Shown piece by piece: positions 4,567 to 63,861 of a DNA stretch of 64,000 nucleotides. The notes below the pieces were generated by a model, which ran no database searches, was not told the origin of the DNA, and was given only the letters and a program-made list of their open reading frames with translations. Numbering within the stretch: position 1 is the first letter of the stretch; every line of letters starts with the position of its first letter. A program made the translations under genes and the position numbers. The stretch is from Naegleria gruberi (lineage: Eukaryota), in assembly GCA_000004985.1 (NCBI GenBank), contig GG738915.1. The stretch is one strand, 5' to 3'.

Positions 4567-5082
4567 GAATTTCCGGGGGGAGATCTAGTGCTGACAAACC
4601 ACTGGAGGTCTGCCTGGCGGGAACACCATTTTTAGTCTCTACAGTGACGCTTTTGTAATTAAAAAAAATAATTTAAAAAATTGGATTGTTGTTGACTACT
4701 CCGCTCACAAACATAATTTCATTTAATTTGTTGATAGTTTTCTTGATACATCACATGAACAATATGTTTAACCACATTTTTACTTTTAAACAATTCTTTT
4801 CAGCTTCGGAAACTTATTTTAATTTCGTTGATAAGAATGACATTATAGTAAGAGAAAGTTTGTTTATTGGTTTAGTGCAGACAATTAGTATATCAGTATT
4901 TGATTCTACCAATTCCATCACATATGTGGGTTGACCATGTAATTAGGTTGTGACATTTTTTTTTAATAAATCTAATAATAATAGGGTTCATATTTAGGTG
5001 GTTAGAAAACTGTAGAGAACTAATATGTTAATAAGGAATAGAGTGGACCATAGACTGGAGATCTCCCCCCCCGGGAATTTCG
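4567..5082. repeat. GC-rich imperfect inverted repeat pair (~80-nt arms) around an AT-rich ~360-bp core; candidate non-autonomous MITE-like element or structured RNA locus
   Basis: The left arm starts GAATTTCC-G6-AGATCT (4567-4586). The reverse complement of the right end reads GAAATTCCC-G8-AGATCT (5061-5081). The inner ends also match: TTAGTCTCTACAG (4632-4644) versus the reverse complement of CTGTAGAGAACTAA (5010-5023), 13/14 with one indel. The middle of the arms is diverged. The element lies in the intergenic space after the MORN gene and has no credible internal ORF. Confidence 0.4.
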
Positions 5083-5443
5083 AATATTTTCTAACGAAAG
5101 ATAAAAGAATTGATGTTCACAATATGAGAAATGTTCTATTTTGAGAGATATAATCGCTGTTAGATCCTCAATACCACAAGAGTCAATTGTTTCTGGAGTT
5201 TTTTACTTCTTCAAGTCAGCAATCATCAAGAAAACAACAACACCTCATCGTAATATAATGCCATCTACAGCGAGAGATCCATCTCCCATTATGACACTTA
5301 ATGAACTCTCTGCCGTTGATGATAAAATGTACAACCCTCAACAAGACTACTCAATCTGTCATTTTCCCTCACTTTAAAAAAAAACTACGAAAACAACAAA
5401 ACCATTCAATAATTGGCCACTTAACCAAGAATTCTTTTTCAAA

Positions 5444-6946
5444 ATGGTCCTCAAGAATTTAATACCCTTCTTTAAGAGTGATAATAGCAACAATGATTCA
5501 CCTCCTCCCAACTCACCTACAACAACTATTCCACCAACAACTCAAATCTATCAGCCACCACCAACTCCAGAAAATAGACAACGAGATAATGATCAAATTG
5601 CAGCACTTGCATTGAGTCCAAGAAATCAACAAACTCAAAGACACTTTCGTTCTCCATCAATTTCCATTCCAACCACAAACAGCAACAATCAACAGCAACA
5701 ACCAACAAGTCCAACCAACACTTCTCCAACTACTAACAATACACGAAACAGAGCAATTAGTTCTCCTTTTTCATTCACCAGAAAGAGAGGAACCAGCAAT
5801 GTTTCGAATGGAAGTAATAACGGCAGTACAAGTCCTAGAGGCATTAATGGTGGTGCTTCATCTCCTCGTAATAGCCCTCAACAACCATCATCTCCAAGAA
5901 ACTTGGTGAGAGAACCAACAAGAGAAGAAAGAAGAAAGCAATTATTTAAAGAATTTGAAATGAAGAAAGTTGTCATTTATTCGAATTGTAAACGTTTGAG
6001 AGCTTTACTTGATGTTTTGATTGAAAGAGCTAAACCACATCAAGTTCAGAATGTTTCCTATGTTTTGGCACAAATGTCAGTTGTCGAAACGACTGGTTTA
6101 CCTCCAACCACTGAAAATGATCTTAAAGTTGTAAAGAGCGAATTGAATTCGATTAATCTGGAAATTTTCAGATTATCCTTGTTGATTTCTGAAAGCTACA
6201 AACAAGAAGTTTTACATCTGACAGGTGCCTCAACAATACATGACACGCGTTCACCAACAAGCATTGAAGATGAACAATTATTTGGAAATGTCAGCTGTGA
6301 ATCTGTCATTTTGAAAATAATTGGTAGAGAATTATCAGATCTTGAAAGAGATTTAGAAAGAATGCATCGTAGATGTAGAGGAAATAAGAAGAAACCTATT
6401 GAACAACCTATCCAACCTAAACGAAACAATTCCTTATTTGGAAGAAGAAGAGGAGCTTCTGCAATTGAAAGGCCAAGTAGTATGGTTCTTGGAAATCAAG
6501 ATTCAAAGAGAAGAAACTCTATGGAGTTTTATAGATCTTCAATAATTGATGAACTTGGTCAATCAGTGATGGAAAAAGTTATTGAGCGAGTTCAAAACAG
6601 TCAATTTAGAACTGTCACTAAAGAATTGCATATTGAACAGGGAATTTTAATGTTAATAGAGAAAAGATATGAAGAATTTGTGGATAAAATCAATAGATGT
6701 GACATTGACATTTATAATCCTGTCAGAATGTCAGATTTGAAATCTGAAACATTCTGGACAGATTTCCTCACGAAAAAGATGGCATTCACAGAGAATGAAT
6801 ATCAAAGTGCTCTTCAAAGTTTCTTAATTTCCAAGGAAACTGAAAATAAGAATCAAGAAGGTTCCTCGTCAATGGAAAATCAACTTTCGAATAGTAACTT
6901 TCAGATAGAGAATCGTTCTGAAGAAATTGACTTGTCTGTACAATAA
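5444..6946 (+). CDS. Hypothetical protein with an S/T/P/N/Q-rich N-terminal half and a helical C-terminal half
   Basis: Single 500-aa ORF with a true ATG at 5444 and a TAA stop. No family motif recognised. Its C-terminal half is collinear with the next gene (see findings). Confidence 0.6.
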   Translation: MVLKNLIPFFKSDNSNNDSPPPNSPTTTIPPTTQIYQPPPTPENRQRDNDQIAALALSPRNQQTQRHFRSPSISIPTTNSNNQQQQPTSPTNTSPTTNNTRNRAISSPFSFTRKRGTSNVSNGSNNGSTSPRGINGGASSPRNSPQQPSSPRNLVREPTREERRKQLFKEFEMKKVVIYSNCKRLRALLDVLIERAKPHQVQNVSYVLAQMSVVETTGLPPTTENDLKVVKSELNSINLEIFRLSLLISESYKQEVLHLTGASTIHDTRSPTSIEDEQLFGNVSCESVILKIIGRELSDLERDLERMHRRCRGNKKKPIEQPIQPKRNNSLFGRRRGASAIERPSSMVLGNQDSKRRNSMEFYRSSIIDELGQSVMEKVIERVQNSQFRTVTKELHIEQGILMLIEKRYEEFVDKINRCDIDIYNPVRMSDLKSETFWTDFLTKKMAFTENEYQSALQSFLISKETENKNQEGSSSMENQLSNSNFQIENRSEEIDLSVQ

Positions 6947-55114: not shown

Positions 55115-56605
55115 TTATTTGTTGTAGAAGAGGGAATAACCGTAGATTAGTCTAAGGATAATGTTTGAGCTAGTTTCTTCCACCAATCCAGTATCAGTGT
55201 TGTTAAGGGGTTGAGTATTGGAGAGGAAGATTTGTCTAATGACTGGCTGTAGGGAGTTAGAAATGACCTGAGAGAGAGGAATCTTACTACTGTGAATATG
55301 GAGATAGTTGTATCCATTCTTGAGGGTTGTGAATTTAATTCCCTCATTTCTGCAGCCATTTAGATTAAGTAATTGATTAATGGGAAAGTTGTGAATGAGT
55401 ACCATGATGGAGGTGATGATTTTTCTTATGGAAACAATGCTAAAGAAGAGGAAAGAGAAACTCAAGTAATAAACTGCAACAGTTGGATAGAGGAATATGC
55501 AAATGGTAAAGAGAATGATGCCTAGAATGAGTTGATCATTAGAATAGTCCTCACAATTGTCCAATCTCTTCTTGAGCGGATTAGCCTTCTTTCCTCTAAA
55601 TAATCTCCACAATGAAAATATCAAATGAATGAGTTGGTTGTAGAGTCTTGAAATTATTCTGTAAAAGAGTAAAATATTGATCGATACAACAAGTAGCAAA
55701 TCACAAACAAGTGCCAACATGGTCGATGCTCCCATCAGGCAAGAGGAGGATATAGACCATATTAAAACTCTAAACAAATCTACTGTGAAAAAATCTGAGA
55801 GATAGTAAAAACCAAAACTCAATAGAGTTTGCCACCATCTCAATCCTCCGAGTGCCATTTGTCCCAATATGATATTCAACTGTTTGTTCAATTTAATACC
55901 TCCTGGATTACTGTCCTTTATCAACCATTCAAAGTGTTGAAACATGTTAATTAAAATGTACTTGTAGAGAGAAATAAATCGTTTTTTCAAATCAATTAAT
56001 GTTGATTCATCCAATTTCCAAACATGATAGATTATCAAAAATCCTAATATCAAATCTAAAATCATATTAAAAGACATTCCAATCCTACTAATATTCTCCA
56101 AATGTTTCTTCAATATACTCGAATTGATAGGAGTGTTAAATAGTGAATATTCTATTGCTTCTCTTCTCGCTTTGGAATTTCCATTATTTAAATGTTCTAG
56201 TGATGACAAAGTTTTCTCCTCATCACGATCCAAAGAATATTTGTACTTTGTATTCCTATCATAATAAATATAATAAATATTATTAATTGAATAATCATCG
56301 GAATGATCAGTGAGAATTATTCTCGAATTTTCAAGAGTAAAATTGAATTTTGAATGATATAATTTAGGAGTGGTAGTACTGCTCTGATGTAAATATCCAA
56401 TACTAGTTGATGGATCACTATTTGCAATCAAATCTTCTTCTGATGAAGCAAGTAATGGTTTTGCATCTTGAATGATAACATCCAAAATTGATTCACTCGG
56501 TTGTCTGATAATTCCTTCCACAATGTGTAGTTTTGAATTTTGTGTTATGCATTCCTTTTCAAATCCGAACGGTATGTAAATATTCAGAGAAAGCAATCGT
56601 GCCAT
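55115..56605 (-). CDS. PIGQ: PIG-Q/GPI1, a subunit of GPI-GlcNAc transferase
   Basis: Single 496-aa ORF with a true ATG at 56605. Family blocks: NPGGIKLNKQLNIILGQMALGGLRWW and LFRGKKANPLKKRLDNCEDYSNDQLILGIILFTICIFLYPTVAVYY. Several TM helices are present. Confidence 0.75.
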   Translation of the reverse strand: MARLLSLNIYIPFGFEKECITQNSKLHIVEGIIRQPSESILDVIIQDAKPLLASSEEDLIANSDPSTSIGYLHQSSTTTPKLYHSKFNFTLENSRIILTDHSDDYSINNIYYIYYDRNTKYKYSLDRDEEKTLSSLEHLNNGNSKARREAIEYSLFNTPINSSILKKHLENISRIGMSFNMILDLILGFLIIYHVWKLDESTLIDLKKRFISLYKYILINMFQHFEWLIKDSNPGGIKLNKQLNIILGQMALGGLRWWQTLLSFGFYYLSDFFTVDLFRVLIWSISSSCLMGASTMLALVCDLLLVVSINILLFYRIISRLYNQLIHLIFSLWRLFRGKKANPLKKRLDNCEDYSNDQLILGIILFTICIFLYPTVAVYYLSFSFLFFSIVSIRKIITSIMVLIHNFPINQLLNLNGCRNEGIKFTTLKNGYNYLHIHSSKIPLSQVISNSLQPVIRQIFLSNTQPLNNTDTGLVEETSSNIILRLIYGYSLFYNK

Positions 56606-56629: not shown

Positions 56630-58391
56630 TTAATTATTAACTATTTGATAATCGGAGGAGGAATTATTATGATCTGATAAGAGAGATTCCTTATTTGAAT
56701 TAGAAACGGAGTGTGTCTCTTTCTTTTTACAACAACAATAGAAATTAGAGAATTCTTCTGAATCAAACTCAACATAACTCAAACAGAACAAGAAAGAATG
56801 AATGAAAAACATGTGAATGACAGAGTAGAAGAATCCAATTTCACCCAGGGATACATTTAGAAGGTTGATGATCATAATTCCAACGTTATAAAGGAATAAA
56901 CAACTCATGCCAAGAATTGACAATTTCAAACTCTTCAGATTGTGTTAACATATTTAAATATTGAACACATTAACAACTTACACTAGAGTGGAAGAGGCTC
57001 ACTTCTGTCAGCCTTCTCAACATTAAGAAAATGAAAATTATAAAGACTCCAAATATTGTTGGCAGGGCTATTCCAACAGCAAATAAGAAGGCTGACAGAT
57101 TCCTGTACCTATCGAGTAGATCAGTACTTGAAGTTATAATAATTACAAAAAGTGTAACTTCCAACACGAGTGCAAGAATTAAAACACAATATGTGATGAA
57201 AGGAGAGAGTATCCTTTTGTACTTGAACGAGTAAATTGTTCTCAGCCATTGTAAAACAACTGAAAGTAAGGTTTGTGTGATAAAAATCAGAGCCATACTC
57301 GTAAAAACAAGGACATAAATTTCCTCTGAAAATATGAGAAGCATACTGGCCATTAAATATGAAAATTCTGTCAGGCATATGAAGAGTGAAGTAAGTATTT
57401 TCATGTGTTGTCTCCTTAAATCTTTGAGTTTAGGTAGGAAAATCAAAACAATTGTTATAATAAAAAATAGAGCCATGAAGAATAAGTAAGCAAACTTTAC
57501 ACCAAGTCTGAAATTAGAAGTCATATAGTTATTGTTACATTTGAAAGAGAAGTACTCATTGTTTAAATTTCCAACACAATTACAAATATAGCAATATTGG
57601 CTTGAATATTGATTTGGAAGAATAGATGTTGTGTCCACAATTATTGGTAGTCCCAGCTCTTCAAATCCACAATAACTGATACTCGATGGAAAATATCTAA
57701 TCATTTTTTGAACTATTGGATCCACAATTGAACGAGTGTCCAAATTCCTTATGGGGGTGTCACTGCAATAATTGCAGAAATTAATCCACTCATAAATAGT
57801 TGTTTGGTTTTTAGTAATTCTATTAATTCTGGAAATGATATCATTTTCTGTTGAATTGAACAGCAAATCTCCACAAGTTATATTCAGTTTCGTCTCCCAA
57901 AATTTAATCTTTTCACATAAATTATATTTTCCATAAGGCGTAAAGTAAAACTCTCCATATAGATTAGAAAGCACACCAATATGAGAGATTGGAACGTGAT
58001 AACTTCTCGATATTTTAACTTCGTTACATTTGAAATCTCCATACTCTGAATTTCTAATAACCTCATTAGCAAATTTACTTTTATCCATCAAGATTTCATC
58101 CACATTCACACAATCAACAAAGTTACTTCCAATCGATCTCAAAGAATGATTTCCTTTTTCAAAGAACTTATTCTCGCTCCACATATTAACAGTTGAATGA
58201 TCACGTCCATTCCTATTGATCGTCCTAATTTCATTCCGATACAGTTGATAAAATAACATAGAGGGTGAATAGCATTCTGCCTTAAATAACATGACGATAA
58301 TTGCCATCATCAAGACGAATATTAAAACAAAATAACTTTTCAAAGATAATTGAATGTTCTCTCCACCTCCTCGGACGAGATATCTCATCAT
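56630..58391 (-). CDS. Seven-transmembrane receptor-like protein with a Cys-rich, N-glycosylation-rich ectodomain (GPCR-like topology)
   Basis: complement(join(56630..56932,56982..58391)), 1713 nt = 570 aa. The 49-nt intron is GTAAGT..GAAG in phase 0. It joins the 473-aa ORF (signal-anchor, ~270-aa ectodomain with >20 Cys, TM1-5) to the 99-aa ORF. That second ORF supplies TM6, TM7 and a post-TM7 CCC-KKK cluster. No family motif recognised. Confidence 0.6.
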
Positions 58392-58439: not shown

Positions 58440-59249
58440 TTAATAAATGTACATTCTGTTGGTGGTTATGAAAACGGCATTGTAATAGTCCAATAATTCA
58501 GATCCGAAAATTCCCTCAACACCCTTAAAACAAGTCACCATGTAGGAGAGCTCACTAGGTAAGATGCCAAATTTCATTGTAAGATTGGCTGTTCCTTGGA
58601 ATAATTCACTCGAGTTTGAATCGCTATTTACAGTTACTGGAAGAGAGTAGAAATGTCCAACAAATTTACCAATTGATGGATGGAAATCGTCTTCCTCACC
58701 CAAATATCTCACTCCATTCACAGTGGAGCCATCAGTTGGAATTGAATCAAACCACTTCTCTGATCCATATGATAATTTAGCTCCAGTATCAAAGTACATT
58801 TTCACCTTTTTGAATGGAGTTGTTACTTGCATGATTGGCAGTGTCATTATTCTCTCCAGTGGAAAGCTAACCATTTCACAATCTATCGAATTAGCAGTGT
58901 TATGATTTTCCAACAACTCTGGTTCTGTTACTTGAGAACTGTAAAATGTCATTTTGGTTTTTCTAATCTCATAGCTGAAATTGCACAGGACATCATTACC
59001 AATAAGATAATCAAGTCCATGACCAATAAGCTCTCCAATTTTATGTGTTGATGCACCAAAAACAGGACTCTGCGAACTGAGGAAGGTGCACCCACCAAGC
59101 TCTAGATTCTTATGAGACGAAGAAAGAGTAACAGGAGAACCTGTATCAATCAATGCATACAAGACTGGGTCGTCTTGATGTTGTGGTATTTCAATAATGA
59201 CATGTCCATCTACAAAGAGCACTTTATAGCTTGTAATTGATCTGATCAT
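58440..59249 (-). CDS. Single-chain tandem retropepsin-like (two D-T-G lobes) aspartic-protease-like protein
   Basis: Single 269-aa ORF with a true ATG at 59249. Lobe 1: LYALIDTGSPVTL ... YLIGNDVLCNFSYEI. Lobe 2: KMYFDTGAKLSYG ... GIFGSELLDYYNAVFI. No signal peptide is evident. Confidence 0.6.
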   Translation of the reverse strand: MIRSITSYKVLFVDGHVIIEIPQHQDDPVLYALIDTGSPVTLSSSHKNLELGGCTFLSSQSPVFGASTHKIGELIGHGLDYLIGNDVLCNFSYEIRKTKMTFYSSQVTEPELLENHNTANSIDCEMVSFPLERIMTLPIMQVTTPFKKVKMYFDTGAKLSYGSEKWFDSIPTDGSTVNGVRYLGEEDDFHPSIGKFVGHFYSLPVTVNSDSNSSELFQGTANLTMKFGILPSELSYMVTCFKGVEGIFGSELLDYYNAVFITTNRMYIY

Positions 59250-59720: not shown

Positions 59721-61481
59721 TTAATGGGTTTGGTTCTTCTGTTTGGCAACATCAGCCATATATCTGGCAATTTGTTCACAAATTTCTTGGTCTGGGGTAT
59801 TGAGATACTTGAACACAAATGCGTGACTTAATAAATCTCTACATGAGTATCTATCTTCAGGCGATACTTTGAGGCAATTCTTGATAAAGTCTTCAAATAC
59901 TTCTGAATATCCCTTTCCTTCGAGTGGGTTCTTCGTTTCTACATTGTTAATTTCGTCCATTACATCGAAATAGGAACCAGATTTGAATGGGAATTCGCCC
60001 AATGCTAACTCCACCAATGTCACACCCAGAGACCAAATATCACTATTGTAGGAGTGAGGTTTTTCATTAATTCTCTCAGGTGACATGTACATGATTGTTC
60101 CTTGACATGTATTCCATACGTGTTGATTTCTTAGTCCGTATTTTCCTCCTTCGGTTACTTGGTTATTCTTTTTAAAAATACCTGTCAAACCCATATCACT
60201 AATTTTCACTTCACCATTCAGCTTGATGAGGATATTTGCTGGTTTCTATTTCAATATAAATTAAATAACAATTTCAATAAAATTATTACATACCAAATCT
60301 CTATGTACAATCTTTTTTCTAAAATGTAAGAAATACAAGCCTTTCAGCACTTGGAATGTAATCATTTCCAAAATTCTTTCTGGAATTTTAATTCCAGCAA
60401 GGGACTCTAAGGAGTTTCCATCCATATACTCTAATAAAATATTAATCTTATTATCTGCAAAGTTGGCATTGTAGAGCCTCAAAATGTTCGAACATTCAAC
60501 ACAATTATATAAAGTTGTAATTTCAGATAAAATTAATTTAGGTTGAATATCCTTTGCTAATTTGACAATCTTTTTGGCATATAATTTTCCAGTGTTATCT
60601 TTGACCAATTCAACTGTGGAACTTGCACCTTCTCCGAGTTTCTTAATAGTTTCCAAATCAGAAAATGACACAGAAGTAATCTTCTTTTGGCCATGTTTCT
60701 TCCTTTCAAAATGTAACAGATTGGCACCATTGGTTTGGTTCATGAAACGACTGGATTTTGTTGGTGAGGTGATAGATTCCAAATGATGTGTAGCTTTAAA
60801 TGGTGATTGGGATTGTGTTTGGGTACAAATTGTTGATGGCATATTTGTGATACCCTCCTCTGTAATTTTAACATCATCAATCCAAAAAGCACCAGAGGCA
60901 GTTATTTCATAATCTACTTGGGAGTAAGTGCCTTCATCATTTTTAGGTGGTGGTTTCAGTGGTTCTTCTGCTTTCGTCTCAACAACTTCTGCCTTGGTAG
61001 CGTTCAATAGTAAATTTGTTGGTTTGAATTTCTTTTGTTTCTTCTTCTTTTCAATTTTACCTTTTGGTTTATCCACGTTGTTTTGAATTTCTTCTGCCTT
61101 TGCTTCAATAATTTGTTTCTTGCCCATGCTCTCTCTCATGTGAGAGGAAAAGGATGGTGTGGAATTGTTATTGGCATTACTACTATTAACATCCACCGAG
61201 TGATTGGAATTATTAGCATTCAAGTCATCACTAGCAATCATTGCTGAGAAGAAAGTACTGGATGATCCCGATGAAGTTGGGGTAGGTGTTGAAACAAGCA
61301 TCGGATCATTGAATAAATCTAATTCTCCACCATCATTAACTGTTGTTGATGTTGCAGGTGTTTTCATATCAGTGAAGGATGCAAACAAATCCTTGGCAAA
61401 TTTGTCATCAAAAAACGTGTTGGATTTGTTGAGAGGTTGTTTCTGATTCTTGTCAGGACTATTGAAAAATTGGTTTATCAT
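59721..61481 (-). CDS. STE7/MAP2K-like protein kinase with a long low-complexity N-terminus and an expanded activation segment
   Basis: complement(join(59721..60245,60294..61481)), 1713 nt = 570 aa. The 48-nt intron is GTATGT..ATAG in phase 0 and splits HRDL|KPANILI. The ORF track start is a TTG; the ATG is at 61481. Motifs: LGEGASSTVELV, YAKKIV, HRDLKPANIL, DMG (in place of DFG) and GTIMYMSPE. There are ~30 residues between DMG and SPE. Confidence 0.7.
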
Positions 61482-61883
61482 TTTGATCAATGTGTTATTA
61501 CAAGAAATTCTTTCAAATATTATAATTATTACTATTGCACTATGAATATGTTCTTTTGTTACAGATTTAGAAGAACATGTGTTGCCGAGCTATTTTTATA
61601 TAAATGTAAAAAATTGAAAGCCTCCTCGATTTTCAATATTTTTTTCTTTAGACATATACAAGTTCCAAACGCCACTCGAACAGGATGTTCAAAGCTTTTT
61701 CTTCAGAAACACATGATCATTGATAATAGTTAGATTTGGAATAGATATTTTGATCTAAGAAGCAGTGTACACCAATAAATATGAAAATAATGAGCTTTAT
61801 TCTACTACACATGTACGTAATAGATGAATTTCAACAATTTTGACTTTATACCCATTACACTCTGTTATTTAGTTGTGACAACT

Positions 61884-63861
61884 TTATTTTATTTTGAGTT
61901 TCTCTTCCAACTCCTTGACTCTTTTCTTTAATTCCACAATTTCGTGTTTGAGTTGTTCATTCTCTTCAATAATTTGAGGAATATCCTTTAACTCACTTAT
62001 ATCCTTGTAATTATCCATTTCCTTAAGAATTTGATGAATTGGAATACTGTCACCTTTCAAAAAACCAATTACTTTGGATAGAATAGTCATGTGTGTGAAA
62101 CAGTTCAATCTTTTGGATGCATCTTTTTGAATCATGGTAATTAAACATTTCACTAAAACAACATTCACTCCCAACTCAGGATCAACATGTTGATCAATTT
62201 CTTTTTGAATTGCATGATGCAACTTCTTTTCCCTCAATAAATCTGTCAATACCAAATAGAAATAACTTCCATTATCTTTGAAATATTGATACTCTCCACC
62301 ATATTTTTGAAAATTAGAATCTTCCAAGAATTCTCTGTCCAACCTCAAACTGCAATCTGTCAAAAGTTTCAATAACATACATCCCAGTGAGAATACATCA
62401 CATGAAGTGGTAATATTTCCAATATTGTGAGCAAGTTTTTCACCATCCAGTAACATTTCTTCGTAATTATCATGTGAAACTTCAGGTGACATGTATGCAA
62501 ATTTTCCAACTGTTAACGTGATTGAGTTACCAGTCTTGATCACTTTGGCAATATCGAAGTCAATAATTTTGTAATATTCTTTCATTTTCACAACATTTTT
62601 AGGATCCAAATCTCTGTGTGAAATGTTATGGTCATGAATTGATTTCACTGCTTGTAAAACTTTAGTAAATATAGTCAACCTTTCAATCAGAATTCCTTTT
62701 GAAATGGATGCTTGTTTTTGATGTACTGTCCTTTTTCTATCGATATAGTCTGCAAGTGTTTCTTCTCCCAACTCCATAATCGAATACATGTAATTGTCAA
62801 TTAAATTACATTCATAACACTTAATTTTTCCTTCAATGTCATTTCTTCTGATAAATTGAATTCGTTCGCGAGATGACACTTCATCATATTCCTTCTCAAA
62901 CTTGATTTTAATGGCAATCATTTCATTAATCTTCTTACTAAATGCTTTTAATGCAACTCCTTCTCCTCCATGACCTAATACTGATATCATATCATATTCC
63001 TTGTTGGAGTAGTAATCGAATTGAGTAATTACTCTAATAATTTTTGAGAAATCTCCTCCAAGTTGTTTGTACTTTGTTAATACTTGTTTGTGATCTTCAA
63101 ATGTTTTGGCATTGCTTGTCCATTCATTGAAAAAGCAAAGTATTGTTCCAATCTCTTTAGTGAAATAATTTAATGTTTCAAACTTGGATGAAATATCCTG
63201 AATTATTGTTCTAATCTTGGAATAATTGGTTTGTTTCATTAAGGTTGATTGATTTTCCTCTAAAAATCTATCCAGTTTAAAACAAAACAAATAGTAATCA
63301 ATTGTCTTGATCGCACTACTTGAATGATTAACAGTTGGCTCTATAGAACACAGATTTTTCAGAATTTGTAAAATAATCATCTTTTCCATAAATTGGATTG
63401 AGTACGATCTTTGATTTAGGTTGAATATTGAAGTAATAGATTTGGGAAATGTATCTCGTAATTGTAAACAATAGTACAAATAGGATTCATCACCAAAATT
63501 ATTAGAGTACATTCCTATTAAATCTCTTGATAATTTGGTCAAGGTTGAATCGTTCTTAGATCTTTCAAATACAGCAAACCATTTTGAATTACTATTTTTT
63601 GCCTTTTCTTCATCAACTTGTGAGAGTGAGTACTGAAATGACAAATCGGACAATAAACTATCATCTGCAAACTCAATGGTAGACCGTGGGAGGTGAGAAG
63701 GATTGACAAATATTTTTATAAAAAATTTAGAAGTCACTCAAAAAACAAAAATTTGTTAAAGTCGAGCCGAAGGTTTATTGGACCAAGAGTGAGACAGTGT
63801 GTTCAAAGTATCAATTACCACTTGTTCTTCTAGAAACAAGTACTTCTGGGTTCTTGTACAT
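61884..63861 (-). CDS. Atypical protein kinase with an N-terminal unknown domain and a C-terminal coiled coil
   Basis: complement(join(61884..63736,63819..63861)), 1896 nt = 631 aa. The ORF track M is a GTG directly preceded by an in-frame TGA. A 43-nt upstream exon (ATGTACAAGAACCCAGAAGTACTTGTTTCTAGAAGAACAAGTG) with donor GTAATT, an 82-nt intron and acceptor TTGAG matches phase 1. Kinase motifs: LGHGGEGVAL, IAIKIK, HRDLDPKNVV, DFD (in place of DFG), AYMSPE. C-terminal coiled coil: EENEQLKHEIVELKKRVKELEEKLK. The exon 1 model is moderately supported. Confidence 0.65.

What the first reader, a model, noticed from the sequence alone, without database searches (positions are those of the whole stretch)
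58440..59249. Single-chain protein made of two retropepsin-like halves
Each half carries a catalytic-type D-T-G (LIDTGSP at the N-terminal side, YFDTGAK about 130 residues later). Each half ends with a retropepsin-style G-x-[DE]-[VL]-L block (LIGNDVLCNF, IFGSELLDYY). At 269 aa the protein is much smaller than pepsins (A1) and has no signal peptide or propeptide. It is about twice the size of a retropepsin monomer. A covalently fused pseudo-dimer is the postulated intermediate between homodimeric retropepsins and bilobed pepsins. Cellular examples are uncommon.
Basis: partly seen in the sequence, partly recalled or inferred. Interest (0 to 1): 0.5.

Follow-up and report, generated by a model that had tools for sequence, protein, structure and literature searches.

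The report
Single-chain two-lobed mini aspartic protease
This Naegleria gruberi gene encodes a compact protein made of two fused retroviral-protease-like halves, each with its own catalytic aspartate; it belongs to a large, unstudied bacterial family and most likely reached the amoeba by gene transfer from a Leptospira-like bacterium.

Summary
ORF 58440-59249 on the minus strand encodes 269 aa with D35-T-G and D154-T-G. Each motif is followed by a hydrophobic-hydrophobic-Gly block (LIGNDVL, IFGSELL).

The architecture is not rare. The family has at least 1,600 clusters at 50% identity and is found across many bacterial phyla. Both catalytic Asp are nearly invariant, as are the family-specific residues D188, Y161, P231 and H16. 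No Pfam, NCBIfam or PADLOC model covers it, and I found no paper on it.

The window is Naegleria gruberi (XP_002670474.1). The only close relatives are two Leptospira proteins (64% and 58% identity, 100% bootstrap clade). The gene lies among intron-containing eukaryotic genes and has host-like GC3. Horizontal transfer is therefore the best reading.

In bacteria the module recurs next to or fused with SAM methyltransferases and ADP-ribosylglycohydrolases. It also occurs fused to Macro, SIR2, phosphatase, vWA and ankyrin domains.

Protease activity is inferred, not shown. An ancestral link to pepsins is not demonstrated.

The parts
58440..59249 (-). Complete intron-less ORF of 269 aa plus stop (58440-58442). 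It is N. gruberi XP_002670474.1 / NAEGRDRAFT_81847 / UniRef D2VZP0.
58941..59249 (-). N-terminal retropepsin-like lobe, residues 1-103.
   Evidence: The AF2 secondary structure shows strands 5-13, 16-21, 30-34, 48-51, 54-57, 81-83, 92-95 and 99-103, and helices 68-75 and 85-88. The N-half profile matches Ddi1 and FIV protease.
59139..59147 (-). First catalytic-type triplet, D35-T36-G37, within LIDTGSP.
   Evidence: Read from the sequence. D35 is kept in 150/152 representatives.
58986..59006 (-). L82-I-G84-N-D86-V-L88: the hydrophobic-hydrophobic-Gly of the first psi loop plus the start of a short helix. It is the equivalent of IIGRNLL in HIV protease (recalled from memory).
   Evidence: G84 is invariant and D86 is kept in 144/154. 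This block aligns with the DVLIGLDML block of Ddi1.
58872..58940 (-). Inter-lobe linker, residues 104-126. Predicted to be flexible, and longer than in typical family members.
   Evidence: pLDDT is 57-81 in these blocks, with residues 120-122 below 50. Most homologues have gaps here.
58443..58871 (-). C-terminal retropepsin-like lobe, residues 127-269. It carries two insertions (about 163-180 and about 208-220) shared only with the Leptospira proteins.
   Evidence: The C-half profile matches the whole Ddi1 RVP domain at E 6e-6. The insertions are visible in the alignment.
58782..58790 (-). Second catalytic-type triplet, D154-T155-G156, within YFDTGAKLSY.
   Evidence: Read from the sequence. 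D154 is kept in 152/153; A157, S160 and Y161 are nearly invariant.
58626..58712 (-). Long beta-hairpin of the C lobe, residues 180-208. It carries the family-invariant D188-F-H-P...G194-x-F196 (58677-58688 encodes DFHP). It is a candidate flap over the active site.
   Evidence: Strands 180-190 and 194-208 appear in the model. D188 is kept in 152/154, F189 in 151 and G194 in 151. The segment aligns with the flap-bearing part of Ddi1. The flap role is inferred.
58491..58511 (-). I247-F-G249-S-E-L-L253: the hydrophobic-hydrophobic-Gly of the second psi loop plus a helix.
   Evidence: G249 is kept in 151/154. hhalign places this block on the LIGNDVL block of the N half.

Best explanation
The ORF encodes a cytosolic, single-chain, two-lobed aspartic peptidase of clan AA.

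Architecture. It arose by tandem duplication and fusion of a retropepsin-like (Ddi1 / Asp_protease_2-type) domain. Lobe 1 is about residues 4-103 and lobe 2 about 127-269. A flexible linker of about 23 residues joins them, much like an engineered tethered HIV protease dimer.

Inferred mechanism. Each lobe supplies one Asp in a D-T-G psi loop (D35 and D154). Each loop is braced by a hydrophobic-hydrophobic-Gly block (LIG84 and IFG249). By analogy with pepsin and HIV protease, the two carboxylates would face each other across a pseudo-twofold axis and activate a water molecule for peptide-bond hydrolysis. The long C-lobe hairpin carrying the invariant DF[HY]P..G.F motif probably acts as the flap.

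Family and origin. The protein belongs to a large, uncharacterised, essentially bacterial family. Typical members are about 223-230 aa, and no curated model exists. The N. gruberi copy is most simply explained by horizontal acquisition from a Leptospira-like bacterium, followed by adaptation to host codon composition.

Biological role (inferred). In bacteria the module is linked by operon or fusion to a SAM methyltransferase and to ADP-ribosylglycohydrolases. It also occurs fused to Macro, SIR2, dual-specificity phosphatase, vWA or ankyrin domains. This points to regulated intracellular protein processing coupled to protein-modification or ADP-ribosylation circuits, possibly conflict systems, rather than bulk digestion. 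The substrate in Naegleria is unknown.

Shown: the duplication, clan AA homology of both halves, the bilobed predicted fold, residue conservation, the taxonomic distribution and the gene context.
Inferred: catalysis, the flap role, the direction of transfer and the biological role.
For: Internal duplication:
- hhalign of the N-half profile against the C-half profile gives 97.1%, E 5.6e-11 and 95%, E 3.9e-8.
- Each half alone matches retropepsin-like structures in the PDB.
- The full profile matches 9iy9 at E 3.7e-9 and Ddi1 at about 1e-8.

Relatives: they reach Pfam thresholds for PF13975 and PF00077 on one half or the other.

Fold:
- AF2 gives pLDDT 92.0 and pTM 0.90.
- Foldseek TM-scores normalised to the query are 0.45-0.55.

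Conservation: D35, D154, G84, G249, D188, P231, Y161 and H16 are kept in 140-154 of 154 representatives.

Family size and spread: 1,607 clusters, 934 of them at E <= 1e-10, in many bacterial phyla. All are named hypothetical protein or generic aspartyl protease.

Horizontal transfer:
- Identity is 64% and 58% to Leptospira sp. 'Mane' and L. idonii, and at most about 41% to anything else.
- The Naegleria plus Leptospira clade has 100% NJ bootstrap and shares insertions.
- The Leptospira genes sit in ordinary bacterial chromosomes.
- The Naegleria gene sits on a 260-kb scaffold between a protein kinase gene split into two ORFs and a Gpi1 homologue.
- Its GC3 is 0.33, like its neighbours (0.28-0.36) and below the Leptospira homologues (0.39-0.40).

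Bacterial context:
- A SAM methyltransferase is adjacent or overlapping in 8/40 genome loci and 5/44 metagenome loci, and is fused in P0079 and P0131.
- An ADP-ribosylglycohydrolase is adjacent in 4 genome loci from three phyla and in 7 metagenome loci.
- Fusions exist with Macro, SIR2, PTP-SAK phosphatase, ankyrin and vWA domains.
Against: - The query itself hits no Pfam or NCBIfam model even at E 10.
- Enzymatic activity is untested.
- I could not read model coordinates, so the Asp35-Asp154 distance and the flap position are not measured.
- Additional invariant residues (D188, H16, Y161, P231) are not part of the canonical aspartic-protease machinery. The chemistry or substrate may be unusual.
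- A few family members have lost one or both Asp (P0046, P0154, P0077), so catalysis is not obligatory everywhere.
- In the NJ tree Naegleria is sister to the two Leptospira sequences, not nested among them (85% bootstrap), and only two Leptospira species carry the gene. A third, unsampled donor to both lineages cannot be excluded.
- Expression in Naegleria was not examined.
Confidence: 0.72

Rival explanations
1. The protein has the aspartic-protease fold but is not a protease. It would be a binding or inhibitor protein, like the plant xylanase inhibitors TAXI, basic 7S globulin or the allergen Bla g 2.
Against: Both Asp, the Thr/Ser and the Gly of both triplets, and both psi-loop Gly are kept in about 95-99% of 154 divergent representatives, including this protein. 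From my own knowledge, not tested here, known non-catalytic homologues have lost or distorted these residues.
Confidence: 0.1
2. The protein is an Asp-dependent hydrolase acting on something other than an ordinary peptide bond, for example an isopeptide or ADP-ribosyl-protein linkage, or a specific modified N-terminus. It would work together with the adjacent methyltransferase, ARH or Macro enzymes.
For: The module recurs next to or fused with ADP-ribosylglycohydrolase, Macro, SIR2 and SAM methyltransferase. It has family-specific invariant residues beyond the canonical set: D188, H16, Y161 and P231.
Against: No clan AA enzyme known to me catalyses anything but peptide-bond hydrolysis. Gene context alone cannot define chemistry. 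The Naegleria and Leptospira copies stand alone, without these partners.
Confidence: 0.12
3. The protein is a true, if small, member of pepsin family A1, as the UniProt label 'Peptidase A1 domain-containing protein' suggests. It would be a direct relic of the ancestor of pepsins.
For: UniRef gives that name. Pepsins rank just below 9iy9 among whole-chain structural matches. The second DTG region aligns with the second catalytic region of candidapepsins.
Against: PF00026 does not hit at E <= 10. The A1 matches cover only 20-30 residues around DTG at E >= 1.8e-4 (2e-4 with the full profile, 3.5e-3 with the C half), whereas Ddi1 matches whole lobes at 1e-5 to 1e-8. Typical family members are about 100 residues shorter than any A1 enzyme and have no signal peptide or propeptide. 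Fusion of retropepsin-like domains may have happened more than once; 9iy9 is another tandem lineage.
Confidence: 0.06
4. The ORF is bacterial contamination or a dead insert in the Naegleria assembly, not a functional amoeba gene.
For: The closest relatives are bacterial. The gene has no introns. No orthologue was found in other eukaryotes.
Against: It is embedded in a 260-kb scaffold between a protein kinase gene split into two ORFs, a Gpi1 homologue and another kinase. Nucleotide identity to Leptospira is only 66%, and GC3 matches the host. A 269-codon ORF stays intact in a 35% GC genome, and every family-invariant residue is retained.
Confidence: 0.03

Closest known systems
PDB 9iy9, 'putative endopeptidase' (exported protein) from Bacteroides fragilis
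   Different: It is 420 aa and annotated as exported, with about 150 extra N-terminal residues. Identity is only 12%, so it is a different family. I found no paper on it, so its activity is also unknown.
Ddi1 / DDI2 retroviral-protease-like domain (MEROPS A28) and ASPRV1 (A33 by my recollection; the family numbers were not checked here)
   Same: These are the closest sequence relatives of each lobe. Matches cover whole domains at E 6e-6 (C lobe) and 7e-5 (N lobe). They share the DTGA-type motif and the GxDxL block, and they are cytosolic with no propeptide.
   Different: Ddi1 has one lobe per chain, works as a homodimer, and carries UBL/UBA domains. Here the two lobes are fused, have diverged (about 17% identity), and carry family-specific invariant residues.
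Pepsin family A1, including the bacterial shewasins
   Different: A1 enzymes are 320 aa or longer, and their lobes are no longer recognisably similar in sequence. PF00026 does not match. Typical members of this family are only about 225 aa.
Retropepsins (A2) and engineered tethered HIV-1 protease dimers; the bacterial retropepsin-like APRc (Rickettsia)
   Different: This is a natural fusion with asymmetric lobes. The N lobe has a shortened stretch between DTG and the hydrophobic-hydrophobic-Gly block (49 residues, against 61 in HIV protease by my count). The C lobe has a long hairpin and insertions. It is not part of a polyprotein.

Membership tests
Clan AA aspartic peptidases (retropepsin/pepsin fold) | Asp-Thr/Ser-Gly catalytic triplet preceded by hydrophobic residues | tested here: met
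   It is present twice (D35-T-G and D154-T-G) and is conserved in about 98% of 154 homologues.
Clan AA aspartic peptidases (retropepsin/pepsin fold) | Downstream hydrophobic-hydrophobic-Gly that completes the psi loop | tested here: met
   L82-I-G84 and I247-F-G249 are present. G84 is kept in 153/154 and G249 in 151/154. The definition of the motif is taken from PMC4814920.
Clan AA aspartic peptidases (retropepsin/pepsin fold) | Statistically supported sequence homology to known members | tested here: met
   Profile against PDB: Ddi1 at 1e-8, 9iy9 at 3.7e-9, plus ASPRV1, FIV protease and candidapepsins. Relatives pass the Pfam cut-offs for PF13975 and PF00077.
Clan AA aspartic peptidases (retropepsin/pepsin fold) | Fold | tested here: met
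Clan AA aspartic peptidases (retropepsin/pepsin fold) | Asp-dependent peptidase activity, inhibited by pepstatin or retroviral protease inhibitors | not testable with these tools
   This needs recombinant enzyme.
Pepsin family A1 (PF00026) | Match to the family model | tested here: not met
   The query has no Pfam hit at E <= 10. Among 33 relatives scanned, one had a sub-threshold TAXi_C hit (14 bits). The UniRef name 'Peptidase A1 domain-containing' is a label from the source database.
Pepsin family A1 (PF00026) | Single chain with two lobes and one catalytic Asp in each | tested here: met
Pepsin family A1 (PF00026) | About 320 or more residues; usually a signal peptide and propeptide | tested here: not met
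   The protein is 269 aa, and typical family members are about 225 aa. The N-terminus is part of the first beta-strand.
Retropepsin family A2 (PF00077) and Ddi1-like A28 | One lobe per chain; the active site forms by homodimerisation | tested here: not met
   There are two homologous lobes in one chain.
Retropepsin family A2 (PF00077) and Ddi1-like A28 | Match to the family model | tested here: inconclusive
   The query does not hit. Relatives hit PF00077 above its cut-off (P0005 24.7, P0008 26.2, P0069 24.6 and P0014 22.6 bits against 20.7), and P0005 also hits PF13975 (30.2 bits against 28.2). All these hits fall on the C half; most other hits are sub-threshold.
Known anti-phage defence proteins (PADLOC-DB 2.0) | Match to a model of a known or candidate defence system | tested here: not met
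   Only weak matches of single halves to the 127-aa retropepsin-like PDC-M08B were found, and none for the query.

The most novel reading that the evidence does not exclude
This about 225-aa tandem module would be a previously unrecognised, widespread bacterial 'mini-pepsin'. It would be either a surviving representative of the fused pseudo-dimer stage that Tang and colleagues postulated between homodimeric and bilobed aspartic proteases, or an independent replay of that event. It would act as a processing or effector protease wired to ADP-ribosylation and methylation circuits (ARH, Macro, SIR2, methyltransferase) in bacterial signalling or conflict systems. Naegleria would have captured one stand-alone copy from a Leptospira-like prey bacterium.
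Probability: 0.2. Interest if true: 0.75.

Novelty: new variant of a known kind. Interest (0 to 1): 0.55.

Why it matters
Aspartic proteases are the textbook case of an enzyme thought to have evolved from a homodimer by gene duplication and fusion. The known single-chain forms, the pepsins, are so diverged that their halves no longer look alike in sequence.

Here is a natural, very compact single-chain form whose halves are still recognisably homologous. It has hundreds of bacterial relatives and an easily expressed size of 25-30 kDa. That makes the fusion step directly testable by structure, by lobe-swap and split-lobe experiments, and by inhibitor profiling.

The family has no curated model or name, so it is currently invisible in genome annotation. 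Its repeated linkage to ADP-ribosyl hydrolases and methyltransferases suggests an unexplored proteolytic step in those pathways.

The Naegleria copy is also a clean example of bacterium-to-amoeba gene transfer.

Tried and rejected
- Pfam and NCBIfam on the query found nothing even at E 10. phmmer against the PDB gave only noise: a porin and Pks13, with E > 0.6.
- BLASTP of the N half against the C half showed no meaningful similarity (E 0.22). Only profiles reveal the repeat.
- The afdb50 fold library was unavailable, so I have no structure-based survey of AlphaFold DB relatives.
- The 100-sequence alignment was too diverse to seed search for related loci, so I used the 5-sequence alignment instead. 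This biases the loci towards members with FDTGAK and DF[HY]P motifs.
- It is NJ only; no ML tree was made.
- PADLOC gave no defence-system assignment.
- No family member was found in the phage, plasmid or IMG/VR collections. A mobile-element or viral origin of the family is therefore unsupported.
- Literature searches found nothing on this family. I searched for tandem or single-chain retropepsins, 9iy9, NAEGRDRAFT_81847, vWA or Macro/SIR2/ARH with aspartyl peptidases, and Naegleria-Leptospira gene transfer.
- A conserved upstream ORF of about 200 aa in five metagenome loci, and its downstream partner, have no PDB homologue.
- The FGE-sulfatase gene upstream in Leptospira sp. 'Mane' recurs in only 3 loci. 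There it follows a sulfatase gene, so I treat the adjacency as probably incidental.

Full report
**1. What is at the coordinates**

One search lists one ORF at 58440..59249 on the minus strand, with an ATG start and 269 aa. The quoted motifs are all present:
- LIDTGSP at residues 33-39 (D35)
- YFDTGAK at 152-158 (D154)
- LIGNDVLCNF at 82-91
- IFGSELLDYY at 247-256

I checked the two DTG codon triplets by hand on the sequence: 59139-59147 and 58782-58790. The two triplets are 119 residues apart, not about 130. The N-terminus has no hydrophobic signal-like stretch, and it aligns from residue 4 with the very start of all homologues. There is therefore no signal peptide or propeptide.

**2. Where the window comes from**

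The protein is identical to Naegleria gruberi XP_002670474.1 (NAEGRDRAFT_81847, UniRef D2VZP0, which UniRef names 'Peptidase A1 domain-containing protein'). It lies on a 260-kb scaffold. The flanking ORFs are eukaryotic:
- A protein kinase is split between two ORFs (59721-60209 and 60261-61490). These match Pkinase model positions 137-263 and 2-129, which is consistent with a short intron.
- A Gpi1 homologue lies at 55115-56605.
- Another kinase lies at 61884-63737.

**3. Is it two retropepsin-like halves?**

Direct database scans of the query were silent. Pfam and NCBIfam gave nothing at E <= 10, and phmmer against the PDB gave nothing meaningful. BLASTP of one half against the other also found nothing.

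Homologues changed the picture. A word-indexed search found only four relatives. An exhaustive HMM search with their alignment found 1,607 clusters at 50% identity with E <= 1e-3, of which 934 had E <= 1e-10. Most are 222-235 aa and cover both halves.

Evidence from these homologues:
- In 154 representatives almost all carry two D[TS]G motifs about 104 residues apart.
- D35 is kept in 150/152, D154 in 152/153, G84 in 153/154 and G249 in 151/154.
- Profiles of the N halves and the C halves align with each other at hhalign probability 97.1%, E 5.6e-11, over 90 columns. DTG falls on DTG and GxD(I/L)L on GxxLL. With 30 sequences per half the values are 95% and E 3.9e-8.
- The C-half profile alone matches the complete retroviral-protease-like domain of yeast Ddi1 (E 6e-6), ASPRV1 (3e-4) and FIV protease (4e-4).
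- The N-half profile alone matches Ddi1 (7e-5) and FIV protease (5e-3).
- Individual relatives reach Pfam cut-offs for PF13975 and PF00077.

**4. Fold**

- With five sequences AlphaFold2 gave pLDDT 77.9. With 100 homologues it gave pLDDT 92.0 and pTM 0.90.
- The only weak part is residues about 104-126, the inter-lobe linker.
- Foldseek agrees, with TM-scores normalised to the query of 0.45-0.55.

The predicted protein is thus a bilobed aspartic-protease fold. I could not read the coordinates, so the Asp-Asp distance itself is not measured. That the two DTG loops meet is inferred from the whole-chain superposition on pepsins.

**5. Features beyond the canonical motifs**

The family also conserves:
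- H16 (140 of 150 non-gap positions)
- A157, S160 and Y161 (the DTGAKLSY motif)
- D188-F-[HY]-P...G194-x-F196, lying on a long hairpin of the C lobe (strands 180-190 and 194-208)
- P231 (154/154)

In the alignment with Ddi1 the DF[HY]P..G.F segment falls in the flap-bearing part of the domain, so I propose it is the flap. This is an inference. A third invariant Asp suggests some family-specific twist in substrate binding or chemistry.

**6. Is the family known?**

- No Pfam-A (2025), NCBIfam (2026) or PADLOC (2023) model covers it.
- Database names are 'hypothetical protein', 'Aspartyl protease' or 'Retroviral aspartyl pr...'. Precomputed Pfam accessions, where any are recorded, are retropepsin-type families only (PF13975, PF13650, PF00077); none is a model of the two-lobed family.
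- Ten literature searches found no description of the family, of 9iy9 or of the Naegleria gene.
- PMC4814920 states the current view. Bacterial pepsin homologues (shewasins) may be ancestral versions that arose by duplication and fusion of a primordial homodimeric enzyme, with the single-lobed APRc of Rickettsia as supporting evidence.

The present family fits that narrative as a compact fused form. However, each lobe is closer in sequence to Ddi1-type retropepsins (whole-domain matches at 1e-5 to 1e-8) than to A1 enzymes (20-30 residues around DTG, E >= 1.8e-4). I cannot tell whether it shares the pepsin fusion event or is an independent one.

**7. Distribution and origin of the Naegleria copy**

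Genome scans place the family in Leptospira, Bacteroidota, Ignavibacteria, Acidobacteriota, Planctomycetota, Verrucomicrobiota, Elusimicrobia, Omnitrophota, Gemmatimonadota, several Proteobacteria and others. None was found in the phage, plasmid or IMG/VR collections.

The Naegleria protein is 64% identical to a protein of Leptospira sp. 'Mane' (complete chromosome CP177134.1). It is 58% identical to that of L. idonii. Identity to everything else is at most about 41%.

The three proteins share a longer linker and two C-lobe insertions. They form a clade with 100% NJ bootstrap, and the two Leptospira sequences pair with each other at 85%.

No other eukaryotic homologue appeared. Nucleotide identity to the Leptospira gene is 66% over 582 nt. 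GC3 of the Naegleria gene (0.33) matches its neighbours (0.28-0.36) rather than the Leptospira genes (0.39-0.40).

The simplest reading is an old transfer from a Leptospira-like bacterium into the N. gruberi lineage, followed by amelioration under purifying selection. All family-invariant residues are retained. Because only two Leptospira species carry the gene, and Naegleria is sister rather than nested, a third unsampled donor remains possible.

**8. Hints to function from bacteria**

*SAM methyltransferase*
- A class I SAM methyltransferase lies immediately upstream, with overlapping stop and start, in 8 of 40 genome loci and in an Ignavibacteriaceae locus.
- It lies downstream in 5 of 44 metagenome loci; in two of these (L077, L079) its ORF overlaps the end of the match.
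- It is fused to the module in P0079 and P0131.

*ADP-ribosylglycohydrolase (PF03747)*
- It lies directly downstream on the same strand in four genome loci from three phyla.
- It is adjacent in seven metagenome loci, some of them redundant.

*Other fusions and neighbours*
- Fusions occur with Macro (P0128), SIR2 (P0147), a PTP-SAK dual-specificity phosphatase (P0086), ankyrin repeats (P0122) and N-terminal vWA domains (P0047, P0048, P0050, P0065).
- Three neighbours carry AAA_5 (MoxR-type) domains.
- In the Ignavibacteriaceae locus the methyltransferase-protease pair sits beside PLD, Mrr and MmeI-type restriction genes.

These partners are enzymes that write or erase protein or nucleotide modifications, and they are common in conflict systems. 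This suggests a regulated intracellular processing role rather than digestion. The evidence is circumstantial. The Leptospira and Naegleria copies have none of these partners.

**9. Verdict**

The protein is a natural single-chain pseudo-dimer of retropepsin-like lobes with both catalytic triplets intact.

It is not a rare curiosity. It is one eukaryotic offshoot of a large, unannotated bacterial family, most likely acquired horizontally. Catalytic activity, substrate, biological role and any ancestral relationship to pepsins remain to be shown.

I rate it as a new variant of a known kind (clan AA aspartic peptidases), with moderate interest.

Noticed in passing
window 59721-61490 (minus strand): A protein kinase gene is split into two ORFs (60261-61490 and 59721-60209). 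They match Pkinase model positions 2-129 and 137-263. This is consistent with a short spliceosomal intron near 60210-60260.
   Followed up: partly
window 56970-58391 (minus strand): A 473-aa ORF starts only 48 nt downstream of the protease gene's stop. It is Cys-rich at the N-terminus, has several hydrophobic segments at the C-terminus, and has no Pfam match at E <= 1e-3.
   Followed up: no
L007:4311-5396 (Leptospira idonii, two genes upstream of the homologue): A 362-aa bacterial ORF matches the eukaryote-typical VHL beta domain above the Pfam cut-off (24.7 bits against 21, E 2.4e-5). The precomputed annotation in L004 also lists a faint VHL hit. This is a eukaryote-like domain next to a gene shared with an amoeba.
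   Followed up: no
P0047, P0050, P0065, P0048 (about 490-690 aa); P0128, P0147, P0086, P0122, P0079, P0131: The two-lobed module occurs as a domain fused to vWA, Macro, SIR2, PTP-SAK phosphatase, ankyrin repeats or a SAM methyltransferase. The linker regions of about 200-250 residues in the vWA fusions match no Pfam family.
   Followed up: partly
L012, L014, L026, L031; L058, L059, L071, L072, L081, L085, L090: ADP-ribosylglycohydrolase genes lie next to the family gene in loci from Gammaproteobacteria, Acidobacteria and Bacteroidota, and in several metagenome contigs.
   Followed up: partly
L046-L049 (Ignavibacteriaceae), about 1-10 kb around 5001-5672: The overlapping methyltransferase-protease gene pair sits among PLDc_2, Mrr, MmeI/Eco57I-type restriction-modification and DUF2130 genes. 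This looks like a defence island.
   Followed up: no
L063:2-655, L065:180-782, L073:521-1123, L074:2443-3045, L080:1667-2269: A conserved ORF of about 200 aa lies directly upstream of the family gene in five metagenome loci. It has no homologue in the PDB by sequence.
   Followed up: partly
P0046, P0154, P0077, P0048, P0111, P0133: A minority of family members have degenerate catalytic triplets, for example NTG/DTS, GTG/DIS and DTG/VTG. They still keep D188 and P231. Several of these are multidomain proteins and may be inactive derivatives.
   Followed up: no
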